A stretch of 64,000 bases of DNA from Amphiscolops sp. MND2022 (taxonomy: Eukaryota), in contig OZ076409.1 in NCBI GenBank assembly GCA_964187785.1, positions 26,848,001 to 26,912,000 of the forward strand, in the 5' to 3' direction. Shown piece after piece: positions 31,981 to 54,617 of this stretch. The position numbers and the translations under genes were made by a program. Below the pieces are notes generated by a model. It saw nothing but the letters and a program-made list of their open reading frames with translations, was not told where the DNA came from and ran no database searches. How positions within the stretch are numbered: the stretch's first letter is position 1; each line of letters begins with the position of its first letter.

Positions 31981-34084
31981 CAAATTGAATGGCTCACAAA
32001 GTTGGAAGAAAAAGTTTTGTAAAATTCTCTACTCGAATGTGCAAGGTCTCTTATCGTTCCAAAAATGTATCGACTCACAGAAGCTTTATCTGACTGGTTC
32101 ATATGATTTGATGCTGTTCTGCGAAACCTGGTTTGACGAGAATGTTGAATCGATTATAATTCCTAATGACATCCCAACAGTTCTGAATCGAGCGGATCGG
32201 AAGGATGGTTCACATGGTGGTGTGGTGATATGCTCGAATACTTTGGATACATCTCCGGTCAAAACAAAATTCGACTTCGGTTGTGCAGTTGTTTTTCACA
32301 ACTGCTTAGTGATAGTTATTTATAATCCTCCCCTGACCACCAAATACCGGGTAATGGATAAACATCTCCTCGATTTTATTAAATCGGTTATTTGCAATGC
32401 TTTTTGGTCGGTCGAGAAAAATATCTTAGTGTTAGGCGATTTCAATATTCTTCGATTAATTGGGCACTCTTTTCCGCTCAAATTCCTGATGAGTATTCCG
32501 AAGTTTTCAATTTCTTCATTCACAATGGCTTTGATCAATTAATTCATCAAACGACCAATGACGGACAAAAATCTTGACCTTTGTTTCGCAAACTTAGACA
32601 TTCAATCATTTTCTGTGTCGGAAAAAAACTTCCAATCTGACCACGTAGGAATAACTATTGGTTTAGAAACTCTTCATCTTAAAAAGTGGGAAATGCCTCA
32701 ATCCAACTCAACCTTCTCCCTTACTCCAGATGCGGTGGAAAACATAAAGCTTGACCTATCTGACAATATATTTTCAATGGTACAGTCAAATTCCGAATCT
32801 AGTTAGAGCCAGAACTGGTTCGGTAATTTCAACGAATATTCTCAAGAAGCACATGAGAAAAAAACGTCAAAAGCGTTTGAGTCTACCTTTCTATTACACT
32901 TCTCATTCGATTCACCTTTATAATCAAATGAAAGCCCTTGCGTCTTCAACTAAAAATTACAACATATCAAAATTTATGTCCGTGAAAAAAGACCTCTTGT
33001 ACTCTATTGAGTTGGATATTCATTGTTTTGTAAACCATTTTGTTAGTAACAACACGAGAATGCATGACTGTTGTAATTTATTCAGATCTTTCAAAACTTC
33101 TTCGTCCTATCCCTCAAAAATTACATGGGAGAAAAAGAAATTCTCTGGTAAATCTGAAATTGCAAATGCCTTCAACGACTTCTTCTTTTGCCAATATCAA
33201 CAATGTTCAACTATCAAAAAATTCAACAACTTCGATGAATTAGAATTGAATGATGTTGAAATCACTCTAGATGAAATATACCCAGTTCTAAAATGTTGCA
33301 CAAATGGAAATGGACCGCATGGTCTTTCTGGGTTTCTACTGCGACAGATTTCAAACGAATTTAGCATTCATTTTCTTAAATTGGCAGAACACATTCTCAG
33401 TTTATCAGTTTTCACTGCAAGCTGGAAAACAACTTTCATTAGACCAATGCAGAAAAAGAAATGTAAAACGTTATTCGAAAATTGTAGACCTGTAGCATCT
33501 TTATCCCGTCTTTCAAATTGTTTTGAACGGCTCCTATATAAAAAACTTTATCCCCACTGTTCAAAAAAGATATCCCATTTACAGCATGGGTTCATGAAAC
33601 GCAAATCGATACAATCGCAATTGTTAATTCACTTAGATTACATACACAACAACCTCGACAGAGGAGATGAAGTTTTCACAGTTTATCTTGACTTCAGCAA
33701 AGCGTTTGATCGTGTTGATCATGAGATTTTATTGAAAAAAGTTGCCAGTTTTGGGATTGGTGGCAGTATACTCAAACTCTTGAAAAGTTATCTCGAAGAT
33801 CGTGAACAACGAGTTAAAATTGACGACTGTCTCTCAACTGCCCTTTCAATCAAAAGTGGTGTCACCCAAGGCTCTGTTATTGGACCTTCAATTTTTTTTA
33901 AAATTCATCAATGATTTGCCTTGAGTTTGTGTCAACTCAATAATGCTACTCTTTGCAGACGATTCAAAAATCTCAAATGCTGATCCCATCGAACTCCAGA
34001 ATGATCTCATAAGGATTTATAACTGGGCGAATGCAAATAAAATGGAATTCAATAACACGAAAACTGAACTGCTATGGTTTACAC
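31967..34084 (+). pseudogene. LINE ORF2, 5' part (APE endonuclease and RT), frameshifted
   Basis: APE 'YSNVQG...ETW...HGGV...YNPP...GDFN...LDL...SDH'; RT 'RPVASLS...QHGF...YLDFSKAFDRVDH...SGVTQGSVIGP'. Confidence 0.9.
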
Positions 34085-34485
34085 TGTGATGCCATGATGC
34101 ATGTCCTCAAAGATTCTATAAATTTGAAATACTCTGAACTCTTAACCAAACCAATTAGTAAATGTAATCTAATTTAGAAACTAAGAAACTTCATTTAATA
34201 GATCCTGTATCAAACTCCCCTGCTTCATCCTGTTGCTGTCACATTGTTAATTGATGTAACCTACCCTAGTTAATAGAATATATCTACTCCGAGAAATTGA
34301 GAATTCATCCTAGCAATCAGTCTTCCTCCCATACTTCAAGAACTGAGATCTCAGAAATAGATTGTACTCAGAACTAGCTAGCTACAGGATAAAAGATAAG
34401 ACGACTCTGTTGTTAAAATCTTAGACTTCTTATGTCAGTTCTAACTCTTCTAAAAGAAACCATCACACAACTTTTTAACAGCTCA
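34085..34485 (+). repeat. gypsy 5' LTR (401 bp)
   Basis: TGTGATGCC...AACAGCTCA; near-identical to 51490-51890. Confidence 0.96.
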
Positions 34486-34487
34486 AT

Positions 34488-34500
34488 TGGTGCGACCAAG
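34488..34500 (+). promoter_or_regulatory. Putative PBS (TGGTGCGACCAAG); cognate tRNA not determined
   Basis: TGG starts 2 nt after the LTR end, the canonical PBS position. Confidence 0.6.
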
Positions 34501-35176
34501 AAAATTCTTTTCTCTCTCCCATTTATTTCACACACCTACAATTGTTGTACTTCTTTCCTTGGCTTTCTCATACGCTATCTCTTTGTTCGACACACAGTTT
34601 CTCCACCTCTCAACATCGCCTATCGTTATTAACTTCAACGTTGCAACCAATTTCTATTTGAAATTGATCCGTGTTGCTATGGTTCTGACTGCGTTTCTCA
34701 ACGTAATTCCTGTCAGTCGTATTTCTTGGTTCTGACTACGTTTCTTGACGTAATTCCTGTCAGTAAATTTTTCGTTCCAACCACCACTGAGTGAATTCGT
34801 GTTGGCTTTTTCTCTCTCTTCCGTTCCAACTGCAGACGTGCGATACGTGTTGGCCCTTCTCCAGTGCTATCCAGCGATACCTGCTAGTAGAAATCTCTTT
34901 GGTTCTAGCCGCTTGGATCAACTTTAAAGTTGGCACACATATTTAACACATATTTTCTACATAACATATTTATAATACCTTCTTATTCTCTCTTCTATTG
35001 TACAAACAGCATACAAAACTCTTTTAACACTAGCTTACGGATCCAAATACATAACAATTAAGATATATAACACATACATCACATATTTCTTTATATAACT
35101 TTCATTTTTATACACATATATATAACAAATTTTTGTACAACTTCTTTTACATACTCTTAATAAAACTTTATTGTAC

Positions 35177-35275
35177 ATGCCGCCTTCAGTAGACACTATA
35201 GTTAAACTTATTGTCTGCTTTTGGTTCTTTGTTGCTATCATTGCTGGTCTTGCACTTTTTCTGGACAAATTCTAA
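35177..35275 (+). CDS. Small hydrophobic ORF (32 aa) in the gypsy leader
   Basis: MPPSVDTIVKLIVCFWFFVAIIAGLALFLDKF*, a single TM-like stretch read directly from the sequence. Confidence 0.35.
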   Translation: MPPSVDTIVKLIVCFWFFVAIIAGLALFLDKF

Positions 35276-35318
35276 ATTTCATTCATACCAAAATTTTGAA
35301 GTACAACCTTTTTCTTCT

Positions 35319-35558
35319 ATGTTAACAAGTATAGTACTACCTCTTTTTGGACTACTTAGTATCTACCACACTTTCCATATACTTATCCAATATATACAAA
35401 ACCCATTCCTTCTTTTCATAAGTATTGCACTTACTATTTTCTTACAAGTTGCTTTCATAGATCAAATTTTACCATATAACTCACAATTCAATACAAGATA
35501 TCTTCTTTTTCGATACATCTATCCTTCATGGCAATCTTATTGTACTAATCAAACTTAA
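35319..35558 (+). CDS. Small hydrophobic ORF (79 aa, about two TM segments) in the gypsy leader
   Basis: MLTSIVLPLFGLLSIYHTFHILIQYIQNPFLLFISIALTIFLQVAFIDQ...; its stop lies 10 nt before the ATG at 35568. Confidence 0.35.
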   Translation: MLTSIVLPLFGLLSIYHTFHILIQYIQNPFLLFISIALTIFLQVAFIDQILPYNSQFNTRYLLFRYIYPSWQSYCTNQT

Positions 35559-35567
35559 TATCATTTA

Positions 35568-38500
35568 ATGCTCCCCACTCCATTTACAGTCACTACTGAC
35601 AAAAGACAAAATCGATCTCTTATACAAGATGTAACACCTTTTCTACAAAACATTATCTTTCAGTACACTAACCCACTTCCATTTGAAACAGAACCCCATA
35701 TATTACATACTATTCCATTAGTACGAGAACATTGTGATTCTTATCCACTATATTATATCCACTATAAAACACTTGACATTACACCATCACAAACTCCTTT
35801 TCAAGTTATTTTTAACCCTGTTAAAGGAATAAACTCCGGAACATTTTATAGAACTATACACCCACAGAATTTTACACTTTCTATACAAGATGTTTTTCAC
35901 ACATACATGCAAAAACTCATTGAATTCAATGAACACCAAGACACACCACTTTATCGTCCTTCTCATTTACAAGAACTAAAACACCTATCTGAATATTTCG
36001 AGGTCCCCGATCTTGACACGAAAGTTCAAAGACATGATAACCCTCATTATTGGTTACAACGAGATATATTACAAATAAAACATTTCCAGTTCAAATTCTT
36101 TGCAAAAATTATCCTTACAGATGACACTATACCTCAAGTCAAAATTTTTACGCATTTCTTATTAAAGTTCCTTAGATTTAACTATCAACTACTTTGGGAA
36201 CAAAAAGACCAAAAAGCTTATATTAACTTCCCTCAAGCACTAACACATATAAAACTCCTACCATACATCATAAACAATGAAAACAAACATCTACATTACA
36301 TAGATCTTACTTCATTAAATGATACACATTTTGAACAAATAAACCTAGATCACAACTTTGTACTTGAACACTCTGAAACTTCAGATAACAGACCTTATAC
36401 TACATCTGATACTTCTCATACAACAACTCATAAAGAACACCTCTAATGTCCAACCTTCATATATGAGACAACAATCAGAACAATCAGAACAATCAGAACA
36501 AGAATCACCAACGCAAGAAACACTTGTTAACCTTTTTCAAAATCCTAATTCTCCTCCGAGACAACCACAATTACAAGTCTCTGATATACAACTCCCAAAT
36601 CCTTCTGAAACCAATACAATTCACAATACATCTGAATTCTCTGAAGAAACAGTACAAAATACACAAAGTTTTACAATAACGGATGATTCAAATCTTATAA
36701 TCATTCCTACCCACACTATCACCCAAAACGAAATTACAAACCAAAATTAAGACAACACCTCAAATACTAACCCAGACAATACCTCTGTTTTATCTACATC
36801 TAATACTACTATTACACACCCCTCTCACACACAAATACGATCTCCTCGAAATTATAATCCACCTTCTGTTCCACCTCAATTCTCAACTCAGATAAATACC
36901 CATAACTCTCCACAACAAAGCTCTTCAAATACACACTCTATTACACAGAACAATAATACAGTACATTTTCAAACACCAACTCCACCATCTTCTTCTGAAA
37001 TACAAACTTTAACTTATACTCCAGCTCAAACCAATTCAGTACAAACTACACAGCCTACCTTAAACATTAACACAATTCATTCCAATCCCTCCTCTAATTA
37101 TACCACAGCCAGACAACTTTCTCGACCTCCATTACAACCTATATTAACTAATCCATTATCATACAATCTTACCAGTACTAATCCAAGTCATACACAACAA
37201 TCTCAGATAAACTATAACACACACAACCAATTAAACACTCTTTCTTCCCAACATACATCCAATACAATCACTCCTACATTACAAACTTCCCAATTTCATA
37301 TACCAAATCCCCCTTCGACAACAATTAGAACTAACCCTCACTTTTATAGTACTTCAACTACATACAATAACCCCACATACAATACAACAACTCCATCTAC
37401 TATGTCTCATAACACTATGTCACACCCAACATATATTAACTCTTCTACTTCTATATCAGAACCCATTAAACCTTTTGATGGACTCGATCACAACTATACA
37501 CCTGAAGAATATTTACAACATATTGAAGCACGTGTTACATTTTCATTAGGTTTACAACCTACATTGGAACATGAATATAAATTTTGGCACGCCCGTCGCA
37601 TGGCTTTTATACAATGCTCTTTAACAGGTACAGCACTAAGCTGGTACATTCGTTTAAACGACACTTATAAACATGATTGGCACGCTTTTGTACAAGCTTT
37701 CAAAAAACAATTTTCCTCACAAAAGAACGCTTACTATGCTCAAGTTGAAGCCCTTAATTTAACAAAGAAAGACAATGAAACAGTACGTCATTTTGCACTC
37801 AAAGTTCAACAACTGGTTGAAAAAGGCTGGTGTAATGAGAATGCATCTACCATAAACCTTAAATGTAATGAAATCTTTACAAAAGGATTTCCAAAAAACC
37901 TTAAAGATTTTGCAAATAAAAGACAAGTAAAACACACCTCCACTGTCTTAGAACCTTCAATTCCTTTTCATACTTTGGTAAAACTTGTTGACGCCGAAGA
38001 TATTGCAAACGACAAAATCAGAACACACGATCTTGCACTTGAAATCAATAATATTACAAAACAATTGAACACTCAAACCCTAGATCACCCATCTCAAGAA
38101 CAACTTATGTGTACACAACCCAAAGACCCAAATAACAAAAATAAACCTGCATATAAAAAATATTGCTCATACTGTCATAGAACAAATCACTCCATTTCTG
38201 CTTGTTTCAAAAAACAACGAGATGACGAAGATAAACGAGAAGCATATGCTCGATCAAAATCTCCACAAAAATCATTCGTTCAGTACTTTCGTTCTCCTTC
38301 CAATGACAGAACAAAACACTATGATAATCGATACCGAAGTCGAAGCACTTCACGAGACAACTCTTATAACCAAAAATATTCACAAAATCGATACCGTTCT
38401 ACATCTCGAGATAGAGACAGATTTCGTTATGACAAATGTACTACTTCTCCACACTACTCCAGATCAAGATATGACACATACAAACGTGATTCTCGATGTT

Positions 38501-39339
38501 ACCGTTCTCCTTACAGATCTTCTTATAGATCCCCATATAGACAAAACTCTCGTCCTAGATACAGATCACGCTCCTATTCAAGAGATAACAAATTCACCAA
38601 ATACACAAATTCATATAGACCACCTTCAAGACCAAGAGACTCTCGATTTTCTAGATCTCGCTCACACTCAAATTCCAGAAATAAAATCAATATGATACAA
38701 CAACAAGAGCAAACTGACCCTATCAAATTTGAAGTACACATGTATCACCCAACAGCAATGGCAAATGCTGTCACACCTACAAGTTGGTTTTATACTCTAT
38801 ATGTACACACCCCATCAAGTATAGTACAAAGAGACAACCCATCTAGATTAGAAATTGCATTCCTCCTAGATAGCGGTGCTTCCATTTCTGTACTCAATTA
38901 TCCAACATACATAACTCTTACAAAACTTCTCGATATCAGACCAAATCACACCTCTGATGTTGGACCAACTCGAAATTCCAAAACACTAACTGTTGCAAAC
39001 CAAACTGAAGTTCCTATTTTACATTATGCAAATATAATTCTGAACACCACTATTGACGAAAACTCTCGTTACTTTTCAGTACCTTTCGCAGTAGCTGATA
39101 TTAAATACAATATCCTTGGTACACCATTCTTTGAAGACAATATACAAAACATAAACATACAAGACTTTACACTCGAATTTAAATACCAATCAAAAACACA
39201 CCCAAATTATGCAAAATTTACAACACTCCTATCTAAAGATTATCCATACTTCTCTTACATTTATAGAATTAATTCAAAAACTCAAATACGTCTAAAACCC
39301 AAATCTTCAAAAATTGCACACTTTCCGATTAAAAATTAA
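35568..39339 (+). pseudogene. gag: Extended Gag plus protease: ~290-aa unknown N-terminal domain, S/T/P/Q/N-rich linker, capsid, CCHC knuckle, RS-rich tract, aspartic protease
   Basis: 36358-39339 is one frame with a single TAA (36748-50), and 35568-36446 joins it by a frameshift. Motifs: 'PFDG...LTGTALSWY...W.AFVQAFKKQF', 'CSYCHRTNHSISAC', 'FLLDSGASIS', 'NILGTPFF'. Confidence 0.85.
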
Positions 39340-39640
39340 AAATCCGATGGCTTAAAAAGCTTTATCCGATCTTTAAAAGCCAGATATTTGTGCAACTATT
39401 ATTCAGAACACTTCAAAACATATTGTAACCCTACCTACAGGACATATTGGATACATTGAAGTTCCAATTACTAATGAAAAACCTCAATTCTTCCAAGTCA
39501 ACGACATTAATACTTTAATACACAATGTTACCCATACTTATCATCGTGATATTACTGAACCACTTTCACAGACCAATTATATTGTACAATATGATGATCC
39601 TACAACCCCTCCTCCACAATTCTCTCTACATCAAATTTAT

Positions 39641-41758
39641 ATGACAAATAGCGACATTCCAAACCAAACTTCTCCTTTATATAACGTTCAGCCTACTTCT
39701 CATACTTCCGAAAAACGCATTTTCCCTTCTCTACCATATACTTCTGAAAATCTGAAATTTATTAATAAATTTAACTTCCAATTTTCTGACCTTACAGATT
39801 CAGAATACATTACTCTTTGCAATATGTTACTCAAATATAAAACATGTTATGCAACTCATAAAAACGATGTTGGAAAAATTTCAACACCCTTTCGTATAAG
39901 ACTTAAACCAAATGCTCAACTTATGACACAACGTCCTTCCAAAGTCCCTATTCACTACCGAGACAAACTTAATGTACTTCTTAAAGAACTCGAAAAATAT
40001 AACATAATCAAACAAATTGGTTCTTCTCCTCAAGACAAACCCGTTTATGGCACAACTTATTTAAATCCTCTTATTATAATCCCCAAGGGAGATACAATAA
40101 AATGTGTATTAGACGCTCGACATCTTAACTCCAATACAGAACAATCTGATGAATCTTGGCCTATTGAACCTCTTGCTCCACAACTAGCACGCGCAAATAA
40201 AAAGTACAAATCCGCTATTGACCTTATGTATGCCTATGCACATACACCTCTTGACGAAGATACTATAAAACTTACTAAATTCTCCTCCGGAGACAAACTT
40301 TTCGCTTTTATCCGAGGCTTTTATGGTCTCAAAGGACTACCAAACTTCTTTACAAAACAAATGTCTACTTTCTTTAAAACTCTTATAGAACAAGGTTTCG
40401 CTCTTGTCTACATTGACGATATATTACTTTTATCTGATTCTAAAGAACACATGTTTCAACTCATAGAACAATTGCACATTATTAGTACAAAAAATAATCT
40501 TAAACTAGCCCCTGAAAAATCCTTTTTCATGCTTCTTAAAGTCAAATTCCTTGGACATGAAATTGGTTACAATACAATTAAACCAATCCACTCAAAAATT
40601 GCAGCTATTCATAAGATTCCTTCTCCAACTGGCAAAGTTGCCCTAATGAGTTTCATTGGCGCACTCAATTTTTACACCAAATTTATTGAAAAACTACATA
40701 TTAACCTCAAACCGTTTTACGTCCATGAAAACACTCCTTGGAAATGGACAGACGAACACAAAAGTCTATTCCAAAAACTTAAAATGTCTCTCACTTCTGA
40801 AACAGAATTAACAATACCAAATACAAAACATCCATTTTTCATTACAGTTGACGCTTCTCTTATTGGATTAGGCGCTGTCTTATTCCAATTAAATGAACAA
40901 AACAAAATGAAAGTCATATCGTACAACTCTCGTATACTTAATCCACAAGAACAAAAACTCTCCACACTTGATAGAGAACTTCTTGGTATCGTACACGCAC
41001 TTCAAATCTATGAATTTCTCATCATAGGTTCTCCCCATCCAATACACATTTTTACTGATCACAAACCTTTATTACATTGTTTTACAAAGAAAGGTAATCT
41101 CAGTCCTCGTTTCTACAGAGCTCAAATGCAACTGACTAAATTTTCAAAACTCAAAATAATTCACACTCCTGGAAAAAATCTCTCTGTTGCCGATATGTTG
41201 AGTCGCTCATTCACAAAAGCTGAATTACAACTAAACCAATTAAAACATAAACACCTCCCACCACAAATCGATTTTGCACTATTACAAGATAACACTCTTA
41301 ATCCTGTACATTACTTAATAAAACATGAAGAAATTTTACCTCATCAAAAACATGACTCTCATCCAATTCTTGCTGATTATGGTACAGATCAATTCTCTAT
41401 TCGTATCAATGATAAAGGAAATGACATTGTTGTCAAACCGTTACAATCCTTCTCATTCAAATCCATAACTCCTTTTCAAACTAAGTTCAAGACACCTACC
41501 AAAAAGAACAACAGAACCCTTCATCAACAATCTCTCTTACTTAATGATACTGACGTTACAAGTCATGACGAAGATCATATTTACACCAGAATTCCAAAAT
41601 CTAACTCTTCCTTCTTACAAGACACAACATTACAAACAGAAAATTATTCTACTCTTAAACAACCAAATCACAACACCCCACAGAAATTAGTTCCTGCAAT
41701 AAATGTACAACCAAATTTACCATCTCTCACACAGTCAACAAATCGTACCTTTTTATGA
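39641..41758 (+). pseudogene. pol: gypsy RT and RNase H plus a long spacer
   Basis: 'CVLDARHLN', 'IDLMYAY', 'GLKGLPNFF', 'VYIDDIL', 'KFLGH'; RNase H 'VDASLIGLGAVL...ELLGIV...TDHKPL...ADMLSR'. Confidence 0.95.
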
Positions 41759-41829
41759 TACATCATTTTTTAAGTACAAAAATTATTTTCAAGGTTTCTT
41801 CCTTCCCGATGATTACTCATTAGACATAA

Positions 41830-43659
41830 AACTCTTCAACAACAACAATCTCAAGATCCGGTTCTCAGAACTGTTTATTCTTGGTTATTAAACAATGAAA
41901 ACCCGAATTTGTAACACCTCTTATCACTGGTACTCCATTTCTACATGTATCTTACAAAAGATTTTCACAACTTTTCATTGACGAATCCACAAATCTTATT
42001 AGTCTATATATTACAAACCCCACTGTTATTAACCAATCCTCTACTCCAAATTTTGTACAAGACACTATTCGTATATGCCTACCTTTCCGACTGTTTAAAA
42101 CTGTCTTTAACAAACTTCATGAACACTCTCATACTGGTATGAAAATCACCTACAATACATTCAAACAATATTACTATATCCCATTCCTTGAAAAATGGCT
42201 TTCCATTTTCATACATGACTGTATTGAATGTCAACGAAACAAACACTTTAATATGAAAATTCAAACTGCTCCTACACAATCTTTTTCAGAACATGCTCCA
42301 TCTTTCAACTATCGAATTTCAATGGATACTAAAGGACCTATTAATCCTCCTTCTCACAACAAATCCTATATACACGTGATAATTGACGCTTTTAGTCACT
42401 TTGTTGTTACAGTACCCATCAAATCAAACAACGCAAAGACTGCTAACAAAACTCTCCTACACCATTGGATTATTAAATTTGGACCACCCATATATCTTGT
42501 CACTGATCGTGGATCAGAATATGTTAATAAAGAAATGGCACACCTTTGCACACTTATGGGAATTCGTCATTCTCCTCGAACAGCTTATTCTCCTTGGACA
42601 AACGGCCTTGTTGAAGTACAAAATAGAAATCTTGGTACCCATTTACGAATGTTGTTACATGATACACCTAAAAATTGGGCATTCCAAGTCCATATGTACG
42701 CTTATGCACATAACTCACAACCACTTTCAGAACTCAACATTTCACCTCACGAAATTGTTTTCCACACTCGACCCAGAATACCCCTTACATTTGATTTGAA
42801 CCTTAACCGAGACACCTCTAAAACATGTATTTCACGATATTGCTCTCAACTTCCAGCACACTCCCATTATGATAAATCCGATTTAAACCCATTTTTCTAT
42901 AAAACACTTTCAAAATCCATACCACATTGGTTTCTCGCTGTAGAAACTGCTATGTTACAAATTTATTCTACAGTATACGAAAACACTCTAAGAAAAATCA
43001 ATTCACACGCATATATTACAAAAACTTATCATGAAGGTAAACCCCTTCCTATTGGTACCTTTGTTTTAAAACGCATTTTTACCCACGTTCACTTTTCTGA
43101 CAAACTAAAACCCCTTCGGATTCGACCATATAAAATTCTTGACAGATTATCAGACGTCACATATGCACTACTTGCACAAGATGGCTCTACAGTACACGTC
43201 CACAGAAATCATTTAATTCCATACTATCCAAAAGAACCACTCTTATACCCACACCTGCGTAGTTTTATGCGCTTTTCAGACACAACTCAATTTCAAATTC
43301 CACAACCTACCAAATATGCAAACAGTGATTCTTCTCCTTTTAACTCTGACGAATCGTTGTCAGAAGAAGATTCCCAAACATTTGTAACACCATCATCATT
43401 TATTACATCCAATCAGAATACACCATCTATAACATCCAATGACAGTTCTTTGACTCCCTCAACCAATGACAACTCCTTATATAGACATATAATTATTACC
43501 CCTCATACTATTATCTCTAGTGACAGATCAAGACACTCATCTAATAACCAAACCACTTCACTTCCTCCTATAATTGACAGAACCACAAAAACTACCTATA
43601 AACTACGACAACAACCCAAATTAGATTATAGACTTTTTATTACACCTTCACAACTGTAA
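41830..43659 (+). pseudogene. pol: gypsy integrase (HHCC, DDE core, C-terminal SH3-like region, Ser/Thr tail); 5' part frameshifted
   Basis: 'LHEHSHTGMKITY...CIECQ', 'ISMDTKGP', 'VTDRGSEY', 'NGLVEVQN', 'PYKIL...VHRNHL'. Confidence 0.93.
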
Positions 43660-43709
43660 TCTAGTCATTCTATCTGTTGGCTCACTCAAAACTAGTCACT
43701 CCGGTTGAA

Positions 43710-44990
43710 TGAATGAAATATAACCCATAACAAGTTATCTCAAAGATAACCTGTTAAAAACACTTCAACAACCCTGGATTCTTCCTCTGATATATCTCCA
43801 TCAGCTCCAAGTATTCCTTCCCCACCTGAATCTTCAGTATCTAGCACCACAAACTCTAGTAATGTAACTCCTACTACTCCTTCTAAAAGACCAAGATCAT
43901 ACATCTCTGAAACCACCTCTTCTTCACTTCTTCACAGACCACCTATAACCGAAATTCCTATAAACACTCGTCCCCAACAAACTCCTATTAACACTCCTAT
44001 TATACACATACCAAACCCTGAAAGTGTTGAACAATACGTAACATACAAACATCCTACAGCTATCAAAACTGTTAGACTCCAACCTCAACTTAATCTTGTA
44101 CAAATCACTGATACTGAATATACAAAGCTACCTCCACTAAAATTACCTTCAGAACATAGCACTACTCCTTCAAAACTTTATCCCCATTAAAACCTCTTCG
44201 AAAACCCTCTACATCACTCTCGAATCTCTTAGACAATAATACTTCTGACTACGCTCCATCACAAGACACAAGCTCACTTTTTGTACCTAAACATAGATAT
44301 AATCTTCGTGACCTTCCTTCACGTAGACTTAGTACAGACACTTCAACACTCAATTTTTCCGCTCTTTCTAGCAATTCTGCATTACGACTTGTAAGACAAC
44401 ACGCTCAACCATTGTCCTCTGACACACCATCTTCAGAACTCTTTCAATCTCCTTATTTTACTTCTGGTTTTGAAACCGCTTCATTACTCTCATCTAACCC
44501 ACAGACTGCATTTCTATCAGGAGATCTCTTTTCACAAGTAGTAATCCCTACTCCTGTTCCTGCACATATTAGACTGCCCGAATACTATACTGCAGAACAC
44601 TCTAGACCTCCAACTCCAAATTTTGCTGACTATCCACTTAGAGTCGATGGTATAACCATCTACGACCCACAAAACGACCCCCGATTTCCAATTCTTGCAG
44701 AACGTTTTATTAACAACAACGACCTCTTATCTCACAAACGCAAAGAAACAGAACTGAAACGTCTCCAGGCATCAAATCTAGAACTTAAATTTGAAGTCAA
44801 AGTTAAATTTCAAGGATTAAATCCACACCCAATATTTCACGTTTCTAAGATAGAACATAAAACCTCTCCTGCTCCTTTCGAAGTAGTACATATTGAATTT
44901 GAACGCGATCTTAATATACCCACTATCACATATGGCAACATTGTCTTCTGTAACCCATATTCCGGTCTCAAATATACAACATCTTTTTAA
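43710..44990 (+). pseudogene. Unassigned ORF between IN and env (Ser/Pro/Thr-rich N-terminal part, globular C-terminal part), disrupted
   Basis: Long open S/P/T-rich reading from ~43750 to 44190, then a frameshift into the frame of ORF 44412-44990. Confidence 0.5.
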
Positions 44991-47640
44991 ACCCTACACA
45001 ACCTTTTACATAACAACTCTGATTCTTTATTTACATTTATTTAACTCTACCTTTTCCATACCCATAACACCCTCTGACACAGAAAACTATCTTCCATCGG
45101 ATGACCCGAATATTACAAATCTCATGGTTTCTCATTATGACTGTGCAAAACAACACAATCTGAGACAATTTAATTTACTCAATGTAAAACAATGCACTGA
45201 AGCTCCTTCTGACATTAAACATGCAAGTGTTAAAGCCCGTGTATATGTCCGAGCAAAAGCTAAACGCATCAAAGCTTTCAAATGTGTTGCTTATGCAAAA
45301 AAGGAAAGAAAAATATGCTTTCAAGGTTCCGTTAAGTACCGTCGTGTTGATAGAACCGTATGGAATCATAATACATTACCGCTCCCTGTTACTCTTGATC
45401 CAGCAGAATGTAAAAACATTATACGACATTTAAATGGTACAAATGATAAAATACTGAATAACCTTCAATACAACAAAACCTTTACACTCTTAGAAGACCA
45501 TTATTTTCAAGAACGTTTAGAACAATATCAAACTCCTTTCACTGTATATCAACTGAACAAAATGTATACAGGTACATTTACATTTATGCCTGCTGATAAA
45601 AACTGGATATATGACCCTACAAAAAACCCTTATCATAACTGTCCTGCTCATCATCAATTCGAAGTCAACTTAGTTAGTTGGCGACTAGAAATTTCTGAAG
45701 TAGAACTTACATATGATGACACATCAAATGACATGATAATTGATGGACATACATTACCCTGCTACTTTGCAGATGGCTTCTGTAAACCCACTACAAAAAC
45801 TCCTTTTACTCTTGTTTGGTTTAATGATGATTATTGTCTAATTTTTACACTACAAGACTTTATTGGACGTATGACTAAAATTGAAGATAGATATTGGATT
45901 GAAACAGACTCTTTTGTACATTCTCCACATCCAATAAAATATAAAACAGCTTCTGGCATAAAAGGTACAGAACACCCCTATGTTTATGCTCCTCATACAC
46001 AACACCCAAATAATCCAAGTCTTTCAAGATTTGAAGTTTTTCCTACAGCACAAACCTTTTGTGGTAAACCAGACCTTCTTTATTCTACACAATATTCAGA
46101 CCTTTTTGTTACATACACTGATGGTTTCAATATGCATACAGGACAACCTAATCCTCATTCCATGATTGATGAGTATATTTCTGGTAAAATAGTATTGGAC
46201 ACTTCAAATAACAAATTTGTATTTCCTGCATTAAATGTATCAAACAATTTTGCTACCATTGATTATGATGCACATATAAACACCAAAATCGATTATACTA
46301 TTAATCATGTTTTCCGATCAATGACAGTACAAGAACTAAATACTCTTCATACAATATGTGAACTAGAACGAAATCAACTCCTTACAATACTCGCAATGTC
46401 AGTACAAAACCCTCAACTTGCTGGTTTCCTTTTAACCGGTAATAGAAGTAACTTCTTATACGTTGAAGGCTCAACCGCCTGGCTTTACGACTGTCCTCAT
46501 TTTTTATTTCCTTTATACAAAGCAGATAGATGCTTTGACCGTATACCCATACATTTTAAAGATACCTTAATGTACGTTGATCCTATTACCAGACAAACTT
46601 ATGATTATGCTACACCAATTACATGTGATAATAATCCACGTAACATTATTGAACTAGATCCTGATTCAGACGATCAAGACTTTTACATTCTTGGACCTGA
46701 ACCTATCAAACGCAAACCTCCACTAATGTTTACACCCTCACAAATCAAAACTACAATACGCCCTAATACTTTTACAGCCCAAGATGCTGGTATATATTCA
46801 AATGCAGAACTTGACCAATTTTGGAACCGTATTTTATTTTCTAAACATTCTGATTCTACACTCCAATTAATAGGCAAAGCTCTTAGTTATTCATTCATTT
46901 CATCTAATACTCCAAATTACGATGCAGATTCCCCTCAAGATTCTGGTAATCCTTACAATACATTACGCATAGGACTCCATGATAAACTCTTGAATTTAAC
47001 TCCTCTTTTTACACCTACATGGTTTTCAGATGCTTTTATTGCACTTTTTGGATACCCTTGTTACATTCTCACACAATGTGGTATATAGTTTTCTACATTT
47101 CTTTTCGTACAAGCTGCTCTTACACTCATTGTAAAACTGTACAAAACAATATCTATTAAATATAATCACAAAAATAATATTACTTTACTTAGTTCTATAG
47201 CACATGGTTTTTTTAATGTTCTTACAGCACGAATGGTCAGTGACCTCCATGAGACTCAAAACCGAAAACCCAAAAGTACACTTTTAAAATCCAAATCTTT
47301 AGATAATTTTATTGACACTTCTCCAAATTTAATTAACCATTCTACAGATGTTACTTCCCCTCCACCTTTCTATACTAAACGACCTAACAAAATTCAATTT
47401 CCTAAATTTAACTTTTTTCCGAAACGACACCACAATTCTCACCATAAAACAACTCCACTTCCTTTCTCTCCTGTTCAACATCCTACACTTCCTAATTATA
47501 CTCATAAAAACTTTCACTCGAATGACAATCTAACTACTCAACATGACACTTTAATTAACAACCCTGTCACTTCTACTACGGATACACCATTTACAATTTA
47601 TTCGCGGATAAACTATCCTTTTCCTCCTCCATCTTCTTGA
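44932..47640 (+). pseudogene. env: Envelope glycoprotein resembling chuvirus G / class III fusogens; one in-frame TAG at the start of the TM region
   Basis: Hydrophobic signal 'FYITTLILYLHLFNSTFS'; 'HYDC...FNLLNVKQC'; 'ICELERNQLLTILAMSVQNPQLAGFLL...LYDCP...CFDRIPI...YVDPITR...ITCD'. The frame continues past TAG (47086-88) into a TM segment 'FSTFLFVQAALTLIVKLY' and a cytoplasmic tail ending at 47640. Confidence 0.8.
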
Positions 47641-47903
47641 ACACTCTCTCAGTTTTTCTCTAACTCTCTTTCAGTACACTTGCCTACTATTTCTTCACAA
47701 TTGCTACTCCTCCACCACTCGAAACTCTTGCAGAAGTTCATCTTCCTCAGCCCAATAATACTTCTCTCATAATAACCGTCTTCAAAAACTCTTCAACTAA
47801 AGTTGACAAATCCACTCGTTAGTGTAATTTATAGTACTTTAACTTTAAAGTGCTAAGGCCTCTTGGAATAGATAACACTGTGATTATTGATGTTTTTAAA
47901 ACA

Positions 47904-49229
47904 ATGACACAAGCACAAATTGACCTACAAACACAGCTTGAACAAGCAACCCCAACAGATCTAATAACTAGACCTCTTTCAAATGATTCTCCTGTTCTCT
48001 ATATTGAGACTTCAGAACAAACACCTCCAATTTTCCTTGAACCAATGGAACACACAAAAGTTGAAAATGAAAATCCAAAACCTACTCCTCCACAAGATGA
48101 TACTGATCATACACAATCGACACCACCTCCTCCCAAAAAGCGATATCAAATAATGAAAGATCCAATCTTTCTTTCATCACCAATATATCCTCCTTCAATA
48201 CCTTCAAAAATTTCACTTTGCACGAATCGCGATGATCATTTGATCTCAATTCTTTCTACTGACGATTTCGTCTTCAAAGCACAACTAACTTCTCTATATA
48301 TGCATCCTACTGACTATTCATTTCGCTTATATGACAAAAATCAAGACTTCTTCACATCCATTGCTTCCAAAATAATGGGTCCATACCAATATTGGCTCGA
48401 AAATGGAGTTAAAATTTTCTCTCTCCAATTCAATTTTCTTCGACCTTCTATATACGATCTCAAAACAGATGAATCTGATCCATCCTTTCTCTCTATAGCA
48501 CAAAAAGCTACTCATCATCAGACATATACTAAATTTCTACAATACACGAAATCACAAAATCACATTTTTGTCAATTACAAATATTCATCACCGTTCACAA
48601 TGACAAATATATAGGTTCTGGACCACTCCTGTATAACAGGCTACCTTCGGAACTATGACCCTATAAAACAATACTTCTGTTTGCTTCCATATAACAATAC
48701 TTCACGTCCACTTATTGTACCTCAAGAATATCTCATACATTACGATGATTTTTTGTTGCCTTGCAACATTCCTACTCAAATTGCAAAACCTCTTACTGTT
48801 ATTAAACACCTCGTTTCTTCTCCATTCGACGATAAAGATAGAACATCCTATACAGCACTCTACAAACAAACGTATTCCTACAATGAACTTCTCCTTATCT
48901 CTGCCAAAACTATCTCTTTCATGGTACAAGCTGAACAAAAACCTGAACATAAATCACACACTTCACCCATAAAAAACGCTCCTGACAAACTTTCCTCTGT
49001 ATTAAACAACCGACCACTTCGCGACATAACAAAACTTGAACCCTATAAACGAAACTCCTCTGAAACACCTATCACAACACTCACACATATACTACACTGC
49101 TACGACAGAACACACAAACTCCTTCAGACACTCGATTTAGACTCTCAACGCATCACTCAATCATCCCAAGCAATCCAATCTGCTTTGGAAACTATAACTA
49201 CTCTTTTTAACTCAACTGATCTTCATTAA
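47904..49229 (+). pseudogene. Unassigned accessory ORF downstream of env (about 440 aa if frameshifts near 48600-48650 are repaired)
   Basis: ORFs 47850-48614 (ATG at 47904) and 48681-49229 are adjacent on the same strand; 'PPPPKKR' NLS-like motif and a C-terminal heptad-like segment. Confidence 0.55.
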
Positions 49230-49648
49230 AATCTTTTACAGGTAATAGAAAGTTCTTAATTTTTCTTCTATGGTACACTCTATGATACATCTGTGACACA
49301 TCCTTCAAGGTATTTTCATTTTTACCTACTTCTTTAAAGTAAATTCTTGCTTTTGAATGAAATCTCAGGACTATTTTTCAAGTACACTAATTTTTCCTAC
49401 AGTACATGTCCAAAAAACTAACTATTTCTATTAAAAACACTACAATACAAGACATACAAGACAGTATGGCACATAACTACATATGATACATTCTAGCACC
49501 CAATTTTGTTGTACATCTTTGACTCGATATTGTCATTCTTCTTACACTTCCTTTGTTTTAGAAACATCCATTCTTCTTCCTCCTCCTTCCATTCTCTTTC
49601 AGAACATCTCTACTTCTCCTTTTTCGTCTTCCACAGGACTCTCTCGTC

Positions 49649-50101
49649 ATGGCCCCCAACGCTGAAATACAAGATATAATTACAATGACTTCCAGCCATT
49701 CTAAAGTTCATAGCCTAAAAGCAGCTATTTTCCACACAATGGCATACAAACTTTCCCTGGAAATAAACAACAATAAAATAACGCCAAAATCTCTTATCGC
49801 CTTTCTGAAAGTCTTATATAATGTCACCCAAATCAAAAAGAAGCACATTACATTTGAATAATATTCAAGGCTTCATGTTGCCGGACCAAAAATAGCCATA
49901 TGTGAAACGGCTTCTAATGTCGTTTTTGTGTTAAACTCGGCGTTCACGTCTAAAGACCAATACTTTCAAGCTGCCCTCCACGAAGCCACCAACGCATTCA
50001 ATGAGATGCTTCATAGTTTTGGATATACCCAAAAACTCGAACACTATGGTCCTCACCAACATCAGGCACACCCACCTCAACAACATCCTCTATACAACTA
50101 A
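49649..50101 (+). pseudogene. Unassigned ~150-aa accessory ORF with one internal stop
   Basis: MAPNAEIQ...HITFE*YSRLHVAGPKIAICETASNVVFVLNSAF...HPLYN*; the frame stays open for 79 codons after the TAA. Confidence 0.5.
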
Positions 50102-50309
50102 ACCAATATTCTACTTACTTCATCACTCTTCAACTCCATCTCTTCTTGAATCCGTCATTCTTCCTCAATGATGTTTGAGATGTAGCTGTCGCTCACTCCT
50201 TCAAAGAACTCCTACACATGCTGAAACTCTTCACTCCACCCACACACGATGGTCAACAACATCCATCTCCATTTTGGGTTCATCGACGTTGCCAAACTTT
50301 GTCCTCGTC

Positions 50310-50423
50310 ACTGGTCTTCACACCTCACGATGACTTCTTGACTGGTCTTCATACTTCAAATGCTGACTTCTTGACTGGTCTTCACACCTCAACTGCTGAC
50401 TTCTTGACTGGTCTTCATACTCC
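50310..50423 (+). repeat. ~33-bp tandem repeat (about 3.5 units) in the gypsy 3' region
   Basis: Repeats of actggtcttca(c/t)ac(c/t)tca..tgctgacttcttg. Confidence 0.85.
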
Positions 50424-51489
50424 AATGGCCAATACAAATTTCAAACTGAACTGTATAATCACTTTTAACCAATATAACCTGTAACTTATTTTAATCAAAT
50501 TATAACTTTAATACAGTCTAGTGCTATTTACTCTTATCTAATCTTTAGTGCTATATAATCTTATTTATTCTTAATCTTCTCTAATCGTAGTATAATTACC
50601 CCCCATTAAAAATAATCCTTCCTAAATTCTACCTATAATTATCCTTGTAACCACAATAATATCTAGTTCCATTGTATTGTGTATCGTACAATAACTTAAT
50701 CTTATCTCATTATGTTGATACTTATATAATACACTTTAAAAATATATCTCCAATACCCATCTTTTACAGAACACAAGTCCTACTTACAGTACAAGAAATT
50801 TTCTAAGATTTTTGGACAAAATTTTTCTTTAACAAAACATGTTATACAACTTTGTTTTAATCCCCAAAAGCATTCCCAAAAATTTTCAAATTTTTCATTA
50901 GAACTCTTCAAAAATGTCACTTCTAGTTTTCCAATGTTTGAAACTTGAAATAGCCAAAGTTTTTTTCAACTCTTGCTTCTGCTCTACTCTTCACTTTTGT
51001 TGAAAATGAACTCTCACTAGAACCTTGACTTTTCGAAACTTCTTCACTTTTGGTTCACATACCCGCCAATGTTGGTTCACAACTCATTGACAACTTCACG
51101 CTTTAATTCTTAAACTTGAAAAGTTTTCAATGCTGACTAACTCATGTTGATGAAAGAATTTTTTCAAACAAGCCAATGGCTGATACGAAAAAGAAACATG
51201 AAATGATAAATAGTTGTCAACAATAACTTCAAAGAACTTGTCAGTCAAAGAAACTGAAAGAACTTGAACCTTGCTAGAACCTTTTTGCACCAATTGAATC
51301 GTCTATGACGTAAGAAGTCAAATCGTCTTAGGTTGTTCTCACTCCTTAAGTATGGTATTCTACAAAACAAAACTCATGCAACTCTAGTACAACACAAATG
51401 AAACAAACCCATGCATATAACAAAAACTTCTAGAACTCCTCAAACCCAAACTGCATATAGGTAATTTAATTTTTAAATTCCCGGTTGAT

Positions 51490-51890
51490 TGTGATGCCAT
51501 GATGCATGTCCTCGAAGATTCTATAAATTTGAAATACTCTGAACTCTTAACCAAACCAATTAGTAAATGTAATCTAATTTAGAAACTAAGAAACTTCATT
51601 TAATAGATCCTGTATCAAACTCCCCTGCTTCATCCTGTTGCTGTCACATTGTTAATTGATGTAACCTACCCTAGTTAATAGAATATATCTACTCGGAGAA
51701 ATTGAGAATTCATCCTAGCAATCAGTCTTCCTCCCATACTTCAAGAACTGAGATCTCAGAAATAGATTGTACTCAGAACTAGCTAGTTACAGGATAAAAG
51801 ATAAGACGACTCTGCTGTTAAAATCTTAGACTTCTTATATCAGTTCTAACTCTTCTAAAAGAAACCATCACACAACTTTCTAACAGCTCA
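51490..51890 (+). repeat. gypsy 3' LTR (401 bp)
   Basis: Near-identical to 34085-34485; followed by the TSD ACAC. Confidence 0.96.
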
Positions 51891-52495
51891 ACACTTCTCG
51901 CTATAAAATTTCTGATAGACGTGTATTGGTCTTTGATTCTAAAGATATTGAGTTTTCTACGGTCCCTATTAATGATTTGGGTATCAATTTTACGTCTGAT
52001 TTGAAATGGTCAGCCCACATCGATGTTCGTATTAGAAAAGCTTTTTCACGATTCAAGATGCTAAAGCGGTCCTTACCGACTACCTTACCAGATAATGTAA
52101 AATCACAAGTTTACAAACTTTATACCACTAATCACCTATGGAGCAGTCCCATGGTTTCCCAACAAGACTGATTTATCGAAATTAGAAGTCTTTCAAAATA
52201 AAGTTACTCGTTGGTTTGGACCTATAGATGATTATAGGGATCGGCTATTAGCCCTCAATTTACTTCCCTTTTCTTTGCTATTTCAGTTGAACGACCTCCT
52301 TTTCCTACATCAATGTATTGTCAACGATTCTCCGATATGTTCAGGACTGTTCTACAAAGGAGCTCCCCGCCATTATGCCACCCGGTTTTCATCACGAAAA
52401 CTTCTCTTTAAGAAGAATACAAGACTGAAGTCCACCGACAGCTTTTTCATAAACAGAGTTGTTAATCTTTTACTACTACATGTCAGTTCTACCAC

Positions 52496-53297: not shown

Positions 53298-54207
53298 GGG
53301 TGGGCGGAAGTAGGTCGAAGGGTAAATGGTCACTTGGCTTAATGCCATTTGGCTTAAAGTCATTTGGCTTAATATAATTGGTCACTTGGCTTAATTTTTT
53401 TAAGCTAAGTGTCTCGGGTACTGGTCACTTGGCTTAAAGTCATTTGACTTAAAACCTCCTAGTTGAAAACACGTTGCAGATTTTGTCGATTTTATCTTTA
53501 TAACGTAGTCAGCGTATTATTATAACGTCATATCAAGTACCCTTCGCATATGTCCCCATTTCCTCTAGTGCCCTGCGGCCCCTTGGGGCCGCTTATATTC
53601 CCATCTTGCTAAGCGAGGTCGAACAGGAGCAAAGACCTAGCGGGAACGAAGATCGCGAAGCGATCGTAGTGGCAGCTGGTCTTTGCGACGGCGAGGGCGA
53701 GCGTGCATACACCGCATATGCCCCACATTATGATATTTCCGGGAGTTGACATATTTATTCCTTGAGTTGGAATGGAGTTGGCTTAATTTTGTGTTCACTT
53801 GGCTTAAAAATTTTGAGCCAAATGACTCGACAAAAAAATTAAGCCAAATGGTATTAAGCCAAGTGACTGGTAACCGGTCGAAGGAACGGGATCGAAAATC
53901 AGAGTTAGTCCTCAGGTCACAACCAAATTTTTGAATGGGTTCGAAACAACTCGGATCGAAATTTTTATAACGTAGTCAGATATGTTCACATACCCCTAGT
54001 GCCCTGAATGCAGGAGCGAAGCGAAGCGGAGCGACGTGCCATTTGGCCATGCCTCATGGTTGCTACTCAGCGAAGGGAGCGAAGCGACCGAGCCATACAG
54101 CAAATACGATAAAATTCGACCACATTCCATTCGATCCCTGCAATTCGATCAAAAGGTTCGACCTCTGTCCTTTCGACCAGAAAAATTCGACCTATTTACA
54201 GCCACCC
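53298..54207 (+). mobile_element. Mutator-like MITE family B, copy 1 (about 347 bp net), interrupted by family A'
   Basis: TIRs GGGTGG...TAGGTCGAA; 9-bp TSD TTCGA(T/C)TTC (53289-97, 54208-16); an inverted copy lies at 58831-59181. Confidence 0.9.
53321..53875. mobile_element. Mutator/foldback-like MITE family A' (CA(T/C)TTGGCTTAA subterminal repeats)
   Basis: TIRs GGT....(A/G)GTCACTTGGCTTAAT(G/A)CCATTTGGCTTAA; TSD GGTCGAAG(G) of 8-9 bp (53313-20, 53876-83). The uninterrupted target sequence is visible in B copy 2. Confidence 0.88.
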
Positions 54208-54617
54208 TTCGACTTCCAAGGAAACCAGGTCTATATATTTCTGCAGAATCTTCTGGCATATCGGCTCCAATTTAGTGTTGTTTCGTACCAATGGTTCGTC
54301 GACAAAACTGTACTCGCGATTCTCCAAAATCACCCATATCAACCAACGGAAAATATTTTCCGCCTTCTTGTTCACTTTAGGGTACGGCAATACTGCTTGC
54401 TCTTTGGTTTCTGACTTCCTATACTCATCTTCCCAGGAGTCTTTGTGAACATTTTCCAAGTGACTCATCAAATTTGTATATCCTTTCTTGCCTGGTTGTT
54501 TCACCCTCTTATTGTGGGTGCACTTATATATAATAAAAATAATAATGGGTTTTTCCCGAAGGAGGGGACAGGGTCCCAGAATTCCACAGGTTCTCCTTAA
54601 AGTTGTCCGGCTTTCGC

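What the first reader, a model, noticed from the sequence alone, without database searches (positions are those of the whole stretch)
34085..51890. Giant 17.8-kb enveloped gypsy-type element with a chuvirus-like (class III) fusogen and multiple accessory ORFs: candidate undescribed invertebrate endogenous retrovirus
Seen in sequence: paired 401-bp LTRs (6 differences), ACAC TSD, complete gag-PR-RT-RH-IN, and a ~900-codon signal-peptide/Cys-rich/TM glycoprotein, plus up to five further sense-strand ORFs. Established knowledge: insect errantiviruses carry baculovirus F-type env, whereas chuvirus-like or herpesvirus gB-like env captures are described mainly in BEL/Pao elements of mosquitoes and nematodes. 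Inference: the motifs YDC...LLNV..C and CELER...P...G..L...C....C...IP....VDP.TR....C resemble chuvirus G. This would be an independent capture by a gypsy-order element, giving a complex-retrovirus-like genome about twice the usual size.
Basis: partly seen in the sequence, partly recalled or inferred. Interest (0 to 1): 0.9.

Follow-up and report, generated by a model that had tools for sequence, protein, structure and literature searches.

The report
Giant retrovirus-like elements in acoel worm
This is a damaged copy of a very abundant, 18-kb retrovirus-like jumping gene of a tiny marine acoel worm; its virus-type envelope gene is a combination already known from other animals, but its three conserved extra genes, one apparently started at CUG instead of AUG, look new.

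Summary
The element is real: 401-bp LTRs (6 differences), ACAC target duplication, a tRNA-Met primer site, a Ty3/gypsy gag-pol and a class III (chuvirus G / herpes gB fold) env. The host is an acoel worm. This copy is broken in every ORF. That survey did not sample acoels and capped LTR spacing at 14 kb. What looks new is the layout. Three families in this genome (env 54-65% identical, each with at least 150 near-identical copies, together roughly 8% of the genome) share an 18-kb, five-ORF plan. It has three accessory genes, not five, all under purifying selection (dN/dS 0.05-0.22). ORF2, which overlaps the env start, has no in-frame AUG. It opens with A-n-n-CUG-GAU in 17 of 17 young copies and is AUG-depleted, which suggests CUG initiation with leaky scanning to env (inferred, about 0.65). 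The scan also noted an accessory-rich gypsy with an F-type env elsewhere. Verdict: new variant of a known kind; infectivity untested.

The parts
32748..34084 (+). Host-side LINE reverse transcriptase, 5' part; the insertion target
   Evidence: RVT_1 E 1e-17; FADD motif read up to the junction
34081..34084 (+). Target-site duplication ACAC (left)
34085..34485 (+). 5' LTR, 401 bp, TG...CA
   Evidence: 6 substitutions against the 3' LTR
34488..34498 (+). Primer-binding site, 11-nt complement of the 3' end (plus CCA) of a host tRNA-Met(CAT)
   Evidence: ARAGORN calls the matching genes tRNA-Met; elongator type is my reading of the T-loop (recalled)
35568..43659 (+). gag-pol, one frame of about 2,700 codons by family layout, broken here. 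Order: conserved ~280-aa N-terminal domain of no known family; low-complexity linker; Retrotrans_gag (~37606-37821); CCHC knuckle; RS-rich tract; DSG protease; RT with YIDD (~40190-40564); one RNase H (~40826-41143); H2C2 and rve integrase (~42088-42594)
   Evidence: knuckle, protease and catalytic motifs read by eye (recalled motifs)
43774..44990 (+). ORF2: accessory gene with no in-frame AUG, putative CUG start at 43774; Ser/Pro/Thr-rich N-half, YNLR motif, conserved C-terminal domain; overlaps the env start by 59 nt; frameshifted in this copy
   Evidence: no Pfam hit
44932..47640 (+). env: class III fusogen (chuvirus G / herpes gB fold), 902 codons, 14 Cys and 6 N-glycosylation sequons in residues 45-700, membrane segment at ~712-740; in-frame stop at 47086 in this copy
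47904..49229 (+). ORF4: accessory gene of ~440 aa, no known family; in-frame stop at 48612 in this copy
49649..50101 (+). ORF5: accessory gene of ~150 aa, fast-evolving; in-frame stop at 49859 in this copy
51470..51489 (+). Degenerate polypurine-tract position: 7 of 20 purines; AAA..CC(C)GG core shared by the three families
51490..51890 (+). 3' LTR, 401 bp
51891..51894 (+). Target-site duplication ACAC (right)
51896..52099 (+). Continuation of the interrupted LINE reading frame

Best explanation
A recently inserted, defective copy of a family of 'complex' env-bearing Ty3/gypsy elements (HSV/gB-type errantiviruses in the broad sense of Chary & Hayashi) of an acoel worm. SHOWN: LTR/TSD/PBS anatomy; gypsy pol with one RNase H; class III env; three families in this genome with the same five-ORF, 18-19-kb plan; purifying selection on env and on all accessory genes; very high copy number. 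INFERRED: full-length RNA is primed by host tRNA-Met and makes one Gag-Pol polyprotein. A subgenomic RNA whose 5' end lies between the pol stop and ORF2 is bicistronic: some ribosomes start ORF2 at a CUG in strong context, and the rest scan 1.2-1.4 kb of AUG-poor RNA to the env AUG (about 0.65), as in RTBV ORF I-III or HIV vpu/env. ORF4 and ORF5 have their own AUGs and need separate, probably spliced, RNAs. Env is kept because enveloped particles move between cells, most likely from soma into germ or stem cells (about 0.6). Damaged copies are also spread in trans by competent ones. ORF2 and the integrase tail carry YxLR motifs resembling the foamy-virus Gag chromatin anchor, so ORF2 may tether to nucleosomes (about 0.25).
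For: Anatomy. RT. Env fold. Families and layout. dN/dS: ORF2 0.09-0.12, ORF4 0.05-0.09, ORF5 0.08-0.22, env 0.11, Gag N-domain 0.11-0.26, RT-IN 0.06. CUG: the first in-frame CTG is Ann.CTG.GAT in 17 of 17 copies. CTG is 1.1-2.6% of Leu codons in the other ORFs, and 1 of 17 other in-frame CTGs has A-3 and G+4. Out-of-frame AUGs are 0-1.7 per kb against 6-17 per kb in 8 control stretches, and below synonymous shuffles in 3 of 4 subfamilies (P 0.047, 0.003, 0.003). Substitutions switch from 1 synonymous: 8 nonsynonymous above the CUG to 13: 11 below it (Fisher P 0.047). In pair B/B2 the first 12 codons carry 6 synonymous and 0 replacement changes, before any AG. Env frame open for at least 900 codons in 95 of the 150 best-scoring copies. 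Precedent for leaky scanning: passages of PMC5902531.
Against: No RNA data; the one run laid gave contigs of unknown kind and no splice joint. Out-of-sample test on three older copies: one has GTA.CTG.GAT, one ATC.TTG.GAT, and one (decayed) ATA.CTC.GAT, which is not a start codon. AUG depletion was not significant in subfamily B (P 0.32). Lack of Met alone is weak if the low-complexity rate is used (P 0.07-0.28 per family). In pair A/A2 the 20 codons below the CUG show 5 synonymous and 5 replacement changes. AG dinucleotides lie 21-54 nt below the CUG in most subfamilies, so a splice acceptor is not excluded. No stimulatory hairpin at the CUG (z -0.8 to 1.9). The three families are related, so they are not fully independent. 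RT could not be placed against labelled reference clades.
Confidence: 0.7

Rival explanations
1. Same element, but ORF2 gets its AUG by cis-splicing from the 5' leader or gag start, and env is on a separate spliced RNA; the CTGGAT is a cis-signal or just a conserved Leu-Asp.
For: Spliced env RNA is the rule in errantiviruses (recalled). Pyrimidine-rich tracts with AG lie near the ORF2, ORF4 and ORF5 starts. One older copy reads CTC at this codon.
Against: A rare Leu codon is kept in frame with purine -3 and G+4 across families whose ORF2 N-termini do not align. Purifying selection starts before the first AG in B/B2, and B's first AG is absent from B2. Out-of-frame AUG depletion would have no reason to exist.
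Confidence: 0.2
2. The element spreads only inside cells; env and the accessory genes serve particle trafficking, cell-cell fusion or anti-silencing rather than infection.
For: No particles or infection shown. PMC13524379 itself infers activity from copy number. Internally deleted and heavily broken copies also carry near-identical LTRs.
Against: env is under purifying selection (0.11), keeps the class III fold and is present in 7 of 7 copies chosen by LTR alone (partial in one). Non-infectious lineages tend to lose env (established knowledge).
Confidence: 0.25
3. One reading: a recent, independent capture of a chuvirus glycoprotein by this gypsy lineage.
For: The best structural matches are chuvirus/xinmovirus glycoproteins. 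The env was not compared with the published errantivirus env set, so a separate origin is not excluded.
Against: Only 12-16% identity to the top ten viral matches. No free-virus relative in IMG/VR in two scans. The 25-30%-identical relatives are themselves beside same-clade pol (two more pairs linked only by equal contig length). Env identity tracks RT identity (Spearman 0.92 over 21 non-independent pairs).
Confidence: 0.12
4. The many breaks per copy are assembly errors, and most copies are intact.
For: Copies whose LTRs differ at only 1-3 positions carry several breaks each.
Against: Breaks recur at the same place in different loci (gag-pol ends near window 39642 in three copies; repeated truncated env lengths). 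Many are stops rather than indels. Other copies in the same assembly show long unbroken frames.
Confidence: 0.1

Closest known systems
'Ancient errantiviruses' with HSV/gB-type ENV (Chary & Hayashi, eLife 2026, PMC13524379)
   Same: Ty3/gypsy pol; gag-pol-env order; class III env like chuvirus G and herpes gB; multi-copy; single canonical RNase H; env and pol diverge together.
   Different: Host group not sampled (Xenacoelomorpha absent from methods; 0 hits in text and 7 supplements). LTR spacing of 17.4 kb exceeds their 14-kb cap, and the pol-env gap of 1.3-1.7 kb exceeds their 1-kb prefilter. Three conserved accessory genes and a ~280-aa Gag N-domain; 'accessory', 'splic' and 'polypurine' do not occur in their text. 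Thousands of copies against their 'one to hundreds'. A tRNA-Met primer is rare there: 4 elements of 1,512 in the tRNA sheet.
Anakin and related mosquito BEL/Pao elements with chuvirus G (Dezordi 2020, PMC7642597; seen as listing and as cited in PMC13524379)
   Same: Chuvirus-like class III glycoprotein in an LTR element.
   Different: Those are BEL/Pao; this RT is gypsy-type.
Burro giant gypsy elements of planarians (passages of PMC6431247)
   Same: Giant, env-bearing, accessory ORFs, thousands of copies in a soft-bodied worm.
   Different: Burro exceeds 30 kb, with env in frame between gag and pol and identifiable extra domains; here env is a separate downstream ORF of the class III fold.
RTBV ORF I-III and lentiviral vpu/env leaky scanning (passages of PMC5902531)
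   Same: A weak or non-AUG upstream start, a long AUG-free stretch, and a downstream essential ORF. This is the working analogy only.
   Different: Unrelated viruses and proteins; here the mechanism is inferred from sequence alone.
Odin, lokiretroviruses, foamy-like fish ERVs (passages of PMC9040795, PMC6431247)
   Same: Large size and accessory ORFs (fish foamy-like ERVs reach 17 kb); env related to negative-strand RNA virus fusogens (loki).
   Different: Those have a dual RNase H; only one is found here, and RT scores far better to Ty3 than to foamy virus.

Membership tests
Metaviridae (Ty3/gypsy) | pol order PR-RT-RH-IN | tested here: met
Metaviridae (Ty3/gypsy) | RT most similar to Ty3/gypsy RTs | tested here: met
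   Ty3 E 1.8e-37, caulimovirus 1.9e-24, foamy 1.5e-16 among solved structures only
Metaviridae (Ty3/gypsy) | TG...CA LTRs, 4-6 bp TSD, tRNA PBS | tested here: met
   family B LTRs end in TA
Metaviridae (Ty3/gypsy) | Polypurine tract before the 3' LTR | tested here: inconclusive
   7-13 purines of 20, longest purine run 3-5 nt; conserved core in three families
Metaviridae (Ty3/gypsy) | RT/IN phylogeny nested among named clades | not testable with these tools
   no labelled reference RTs available as tool sequences; the tree has only unlabelled rows
HSV/gB-type errantivirus (Chary & Hayashi 2026) | Separate env ORF with class III (gB-like) fold and C-terminal membrane anchor | tested here: met
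HSV/gB-type errantivirus (Chary & Hayashi 2026) | gag, pol and env together in multiple near-identical copies | tested here: met
HSV/gB-type errantivirus (Chary & Hayashi 2026) | RNase H plus 'mini' bridge domain; cysteine-bridge class; position in clades A1-A11 | not tested
   bridge region not folded; figures and reference alignments could not be used
Retroviridae / lokiretroviruses / Odin | Dual RNase H (degenerate tether plus new RNase H) | tested here: not met
   one RT_RNaseH with its acidic residues present; no second RNase H family among the precomputed domains of the 120 listed pol relatives; definition
Troyka / Kuafuorterviruses | CG...CG termini, 3-bp TSD, IADD/VADD/LADD motif | tested here: not met
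   TG...CA, 4-bp TSD, YIDD; definitions
Belpaoviridae (Anakin-like) | BEL/Pao-type Gag, protease and RT | tested here: not met
   no BEL-type Pfam family at E<=0.1; gypsy-type RT_RNaseH and H2C2 hits; Ty3 best
Burro | env in frame between gag and pol in one polyprotein | tested here: not met

The most novel reading that the evidence does not exclude
An undescribed deep clade of Metaviridae is a truly infectious 'complex retrovirus' of acoel worms. It converged on lentivirus-like gene expression: a CUG-initiated accessory protein and a class III Env from one leaky-scanned RNA, plus two more accessory genes and a non-canonical plus-strand primer. It makes up about a tenth of the host genome and is a main cause of the LTR-rich genomes of acoels.
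Probability: 0.3. Interest if true: 0.8.

Novelty: new variant of a known kind. Interest (0 to 1): 0.57.

Why it matters
It would extend env-bearing gypsy elements to Xenacoelomorpha, an early-branching bilaterian group missing from the one metazoan-wide survey. It also shows a size class (over 14 kb, long pol-env gap) that the survey's filters tend to drop. Acoel genomes are reported as up to about half LTR retrotransposon, with no families characterised in the passages seen; here a single enveloped lineage accounts for roughly 8%. Three accessory proteins and a Gag N-domain with no known relatives, all under strong selection, are candidates for new anti-silencing, trafficking or chromatin-tethering functions. 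A conserved CUG start with leaky scanning to env would be a translation strategy my search did not find described for LTR retrotransposons, and it can be tested with one ribosome-profiling experiment.

Tried and rejected
Sequence search of env against PDB: 0 hits with one protein, 1 spurious hit with a profile; only fold search worked. Free-virus relatives in IMG/VR: none in two scans. RNA: no RNA holder listed; the one run laid gave 6 contigs and no splice joint; neither is evidence on expression. ORF4 as a paralogue of the Gag N-domain: rejected (hhalign probability 0.04%); no homology among the accessory families or to the two downstream ORFs of metagenome locus L021. ORF4 structure: pLDDT 38.6, unusable, so no fold search was run. 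ESM Atlas: no usable hit for ORF4, under 0.8 for the Gag N-domain. Pfam: nothing above cut-off for ORF2, 4, 5 or Gag-N. The 203-codon overlapping frame in gag (38084-38695): probably a by-product, dN/dS 0.56 against 0.12 in the gag frame. Primer tRNA: Val and Leu matches were minority variants and were dropped for tRNA-Met. Conserved RNA structure at the CUG or the PPT position: none (7 folds, z -0.8 to 1.9). A fourth env family (P0171) has no close copy in this genome (best 51%), so it likely comes from another organism. Clade-specific RT motifs: 0 hits in the supplements of the errantivirus, Kuafu and Odin papers; this is weak, because cells are cut and alignments are gapped. Ten distant env proteins carried no names. 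Earlier notes on this genome: none.


Full report
1. Observation. The LTR pair is exact: 34085-34485 and 51490-51890, 401 bp each, TG...CA, 6 substitutions, flanked by ACAC. The element is strongly G-poor on the sense strand (GC skew about -0.2 to -0.56 per kb) and sits inside a LINE RT whose frame is readable on both flanks. Pfam gives gag, RT, RNase H and integrase in gypsy order, and PF24664 (Monjiviricetes fusion glycoprotein, E 4.8e-25) for the 44932 ORF. This copy is defective: gag-pol is in five open pieces, ORF2 is frameshifted, and env, ORF4 and ORF5 each carry an in-frame stop. The env stop falls in the membrane segment.

2. Host. The single COX1 of G000 is nearest, among named proteins, to the acoels Symsagittifera roscoffensis (79%) and Baltalimania ylvae (77%); other named animals are at 69% or less. 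The host is therefore an acoel, and not S. roscoffensis (inference).

3. Layout from sister copies. I fetched 10 copies of the window's family: 7 chosen from paired LTR hits and 3 from env hits. Nine cover the element's plan (one lacks ORF4, one has a duplicated env stretch and its 5' end outside the fetch), and one is a 5.1-kb internal deletion. Their open frames show five ORFs: gag-pol from about 35568 to 43659, ORF2 (413-418 codons), env (901-902 aa from Met), ORF4 (~445 aa) and ORF5 (~150 aa). LTR pairs differ at 0-3 positions in 9 of 9 copies parsed, and the 4-bp TSD matches in 7 of 9 (one mismatch, one mis-parsed). Two more families are in the genome: B (env 56% identical to the window's) and C (65%), each filling the 150-row list at 95-100%. 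Four copies each were fetched. They repeat the same five-ORF plan; lengths where both LTRs were read were 18.8 kb (B, two copies) and 18.2-18.5 kb (C, 2 of 4).

4. Abundance. Four env probes gave 5,625-7,338 loose candidates; these are not copy numbers. As a check, 60 grid-spaced 3-kb samples from the 13 largest contigs were compared with the three families: 6 of 60 matched, 7.7% of bases (bootstrap 2.5-14.3%). That is about 4,600 element-lengths by my arithmetic. Acoel genomes are reported as LTR-rich (passages of PMC9911081 and PMC6451197).

5. Env. The AlphaFold2 model of the ectodomain (641 aa, 60-row alignment) has mean pLDDT 74 and pTM 0.54. Foldseek against PDB lists only herpesvirus gB among the rows shown (best E 5.9e-11; TM about 0.3, so domain arrangement differs). 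Against BFVD the best are Tacheng tick virus 4, chu-related and xinmovirus glycoproteins (E 1e-24, TM 0.40-0.46, 12-16% identity in the top ten). So the class III, chuvirus-like call is right.

6. Pol. RT-RH scores best to Ty3. It has YIDD and a single RNase H, which excludes Odin/loki/retroviruses (passages of PMC9040795) and Troyka/Kuafu (PMC12440569 part 1 of 5; PMC11673190 parts 1-2 of 3). In a tree of 30 unlabelled rows, families A-C form one clade (100/98), beside lineages from unnamed assemblies and metagenomes at 39-48% identity; I included 21 of the 120 listed relatives, and the two outgroups are on very long branches. A 13.2-kb metagenome contig, L021, has same-clade pol, a 28%-identical env and two different downstream ORFs that are paralogues of each other. 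Env identity follows RT identity over 7 pairs; two of these pairs are linked only by equal contig length, and the 21 comparisons are not independent. The env is thus old in this lineage, not a one-off capture.

7. Replication signals. The PBS is complementary to the 3' end of host tRNA-Met(CAT) genes. The polypurine tract is degenerate: 7 of 20 purines in family A and 13 of 20 in C, with a shared AAA..CC(C)GG core; it is unchanged in copies with identical LTRs. One paper search on non-canonical tracts returned 4 listings, none read.

8. Accessory genes are real. Between families, ORF2, ORF4 and the Gag N-domain align at 34-45% identity; ORF5 aligns only within families. Within-family dN/dS is 0.09-0.12 (ORF2), 0.05-0.09 (ORF4), 0.08-0.22 (ORF5), 0.11-0.26 (Gag-N), 0.11 (env) and 0.06 (RT-IN), by a simple Nei-Gojobori count on one pair per family. 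None has a known family.

9. ORF2 start. ORF2 has no in-frame ATG in any family. In 17 of 17 copies examined (left out: one family-A copy whose ORF2 frame was broken at its 5' end, and the deleted copy) the first in-frame CTG reads Ann.CTG.GAT, 7-53 codons below the upstream stop. CTG is rare elsewhere (17 in about 11,000 codons, 1 with this context). Between it and the env AUG lie 0-3 AUGs, all opening short frames (1-36 codons), in 1.16-1.39 kb. That is 0-1.7 per kb against 6-17 in controls, and below synonymous shuffles in 3 of 4 subfamilies. Selection appears to begin at the CUG. Against: three older copies gave CTG, TTG and CTC at the site; nearby AGs allow a splice alternative; and there are no RNA data. 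The arrangement matches leaky scanning in RTBV and HIV vpu/env (passages of PMC5902531). A search for CUG plus leaky scanning plus retrotransposon plus env listed 11 papers, none on such an element by title or abstract start. I put CUG initiation at about 0.65. YxLR motifs occur in ORF2 and in 4 of 4 integrase tails examined (one read past a stop); the foamy Gag chromatin-binding peptide contains YNLR (one passage of PMC12125541). That is a lead only.

10. What is known. [quoted passage not shown] The headline combination is therefore known. The survey lists no Xenacoelomorpha, and its filters would tend to miss an 18-kb element. Its figures and external alignments could not be seen and bear on clade placement. 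Extra ORFs around env, giant Burro elements and 17-kb fish ERVs are precedents for size (passages of PMC6431247). Four searches pairing acoel or env terms with retroelements listed no description of an enveloped acoel element; the library lacks most subscription papers, and Repbase was not searchable. This scan earlier noted a coral gypsy with a chuvirus/gB env and an accessory-rich F-type gypsy in other genomes; these are unchecked AI notes that agree with, and do not support, this reading.

11. Verdict. A real, ordinary-in-kind enveloped gypsy element, with a host, size, gene set, copy number and probable translation trick that appear undescribed. New variant of a known kind; interest 0.57.

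Noticed in passing
window 17541-25660: A copia-type LTR element on the minus strand with a 2,021-bp internal segment present three times head to tail (99% identical); likely LTRs near 16296-16795 and 25160-25660. Could be a tandem duplication or an assembly artefact.
   Followed up: no
window 203-4450: Decayed BEL/Pao-type element on the minus strand, recognised by eye from ORF translations.
   Followed up: no
window 38084-38695: A 203-codon frame overlapping the RS-rich part of gag stays open in most family-A copies, and similar 208-239-codon frames sit at the same place in families B and C; dN/dS suggests a by-product.
   Followed up: partly
ORF5 region, window 49562-50101: Between subfamilies A and A2, dS is 2.2 in ORF5 against 0.2-0.3 elsewhere, suggesting the 3' module was exchanged by recombination.
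   Followed up: no
L034/L036, L040/L042: Family B LTRs end in TA instead of CA, with a clean 4-bp TSD.
   Followed up: no
L021 9651-12095: A metagenome relative carries two paralogous coiled-coil ORFs after env (35% identical to each other), unrelated to ORF4/5; its gag and pol are in different frames. L022, L023 also have long ORFs after env.
   Followed up: partly
G000:C9:7862076-7898984: Three env hits spaced 18,204 bp apart, suggesting tandem arrays of whole elements; a contig of run X1 also runs from the 3' end on into an LTR.
   Followed up: no
L028, L029, L071, L072: Host tRNA genes lie in tandem arrays (Val; Leu at about 270-bp spacing; Met at about 220-bp spacing).
   Followed up: no
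L059, L061, L067, L073: Isolated 3' fragments of tRNA-Met, several followed by genomic CCA, at scattered loci; possibly primer-derived cDNA insertions, one preceded by sequence like the family-A LTR end.
   Followed up: no
window 53541-59173 and 57201-63951: Further repeats: direct repeats at 53601/58636 with inverted arms at 53869-54207/58831-59173, and a 99%-identical direct repeat spaced 6,451 bp that may be another LTR pair.
   Followed up: no
window 7688-10891, 29240-29466, 59616-59830: A dispersed small repeat family with a 48-nt core and 22-nt tandem units.
   Followed up: no
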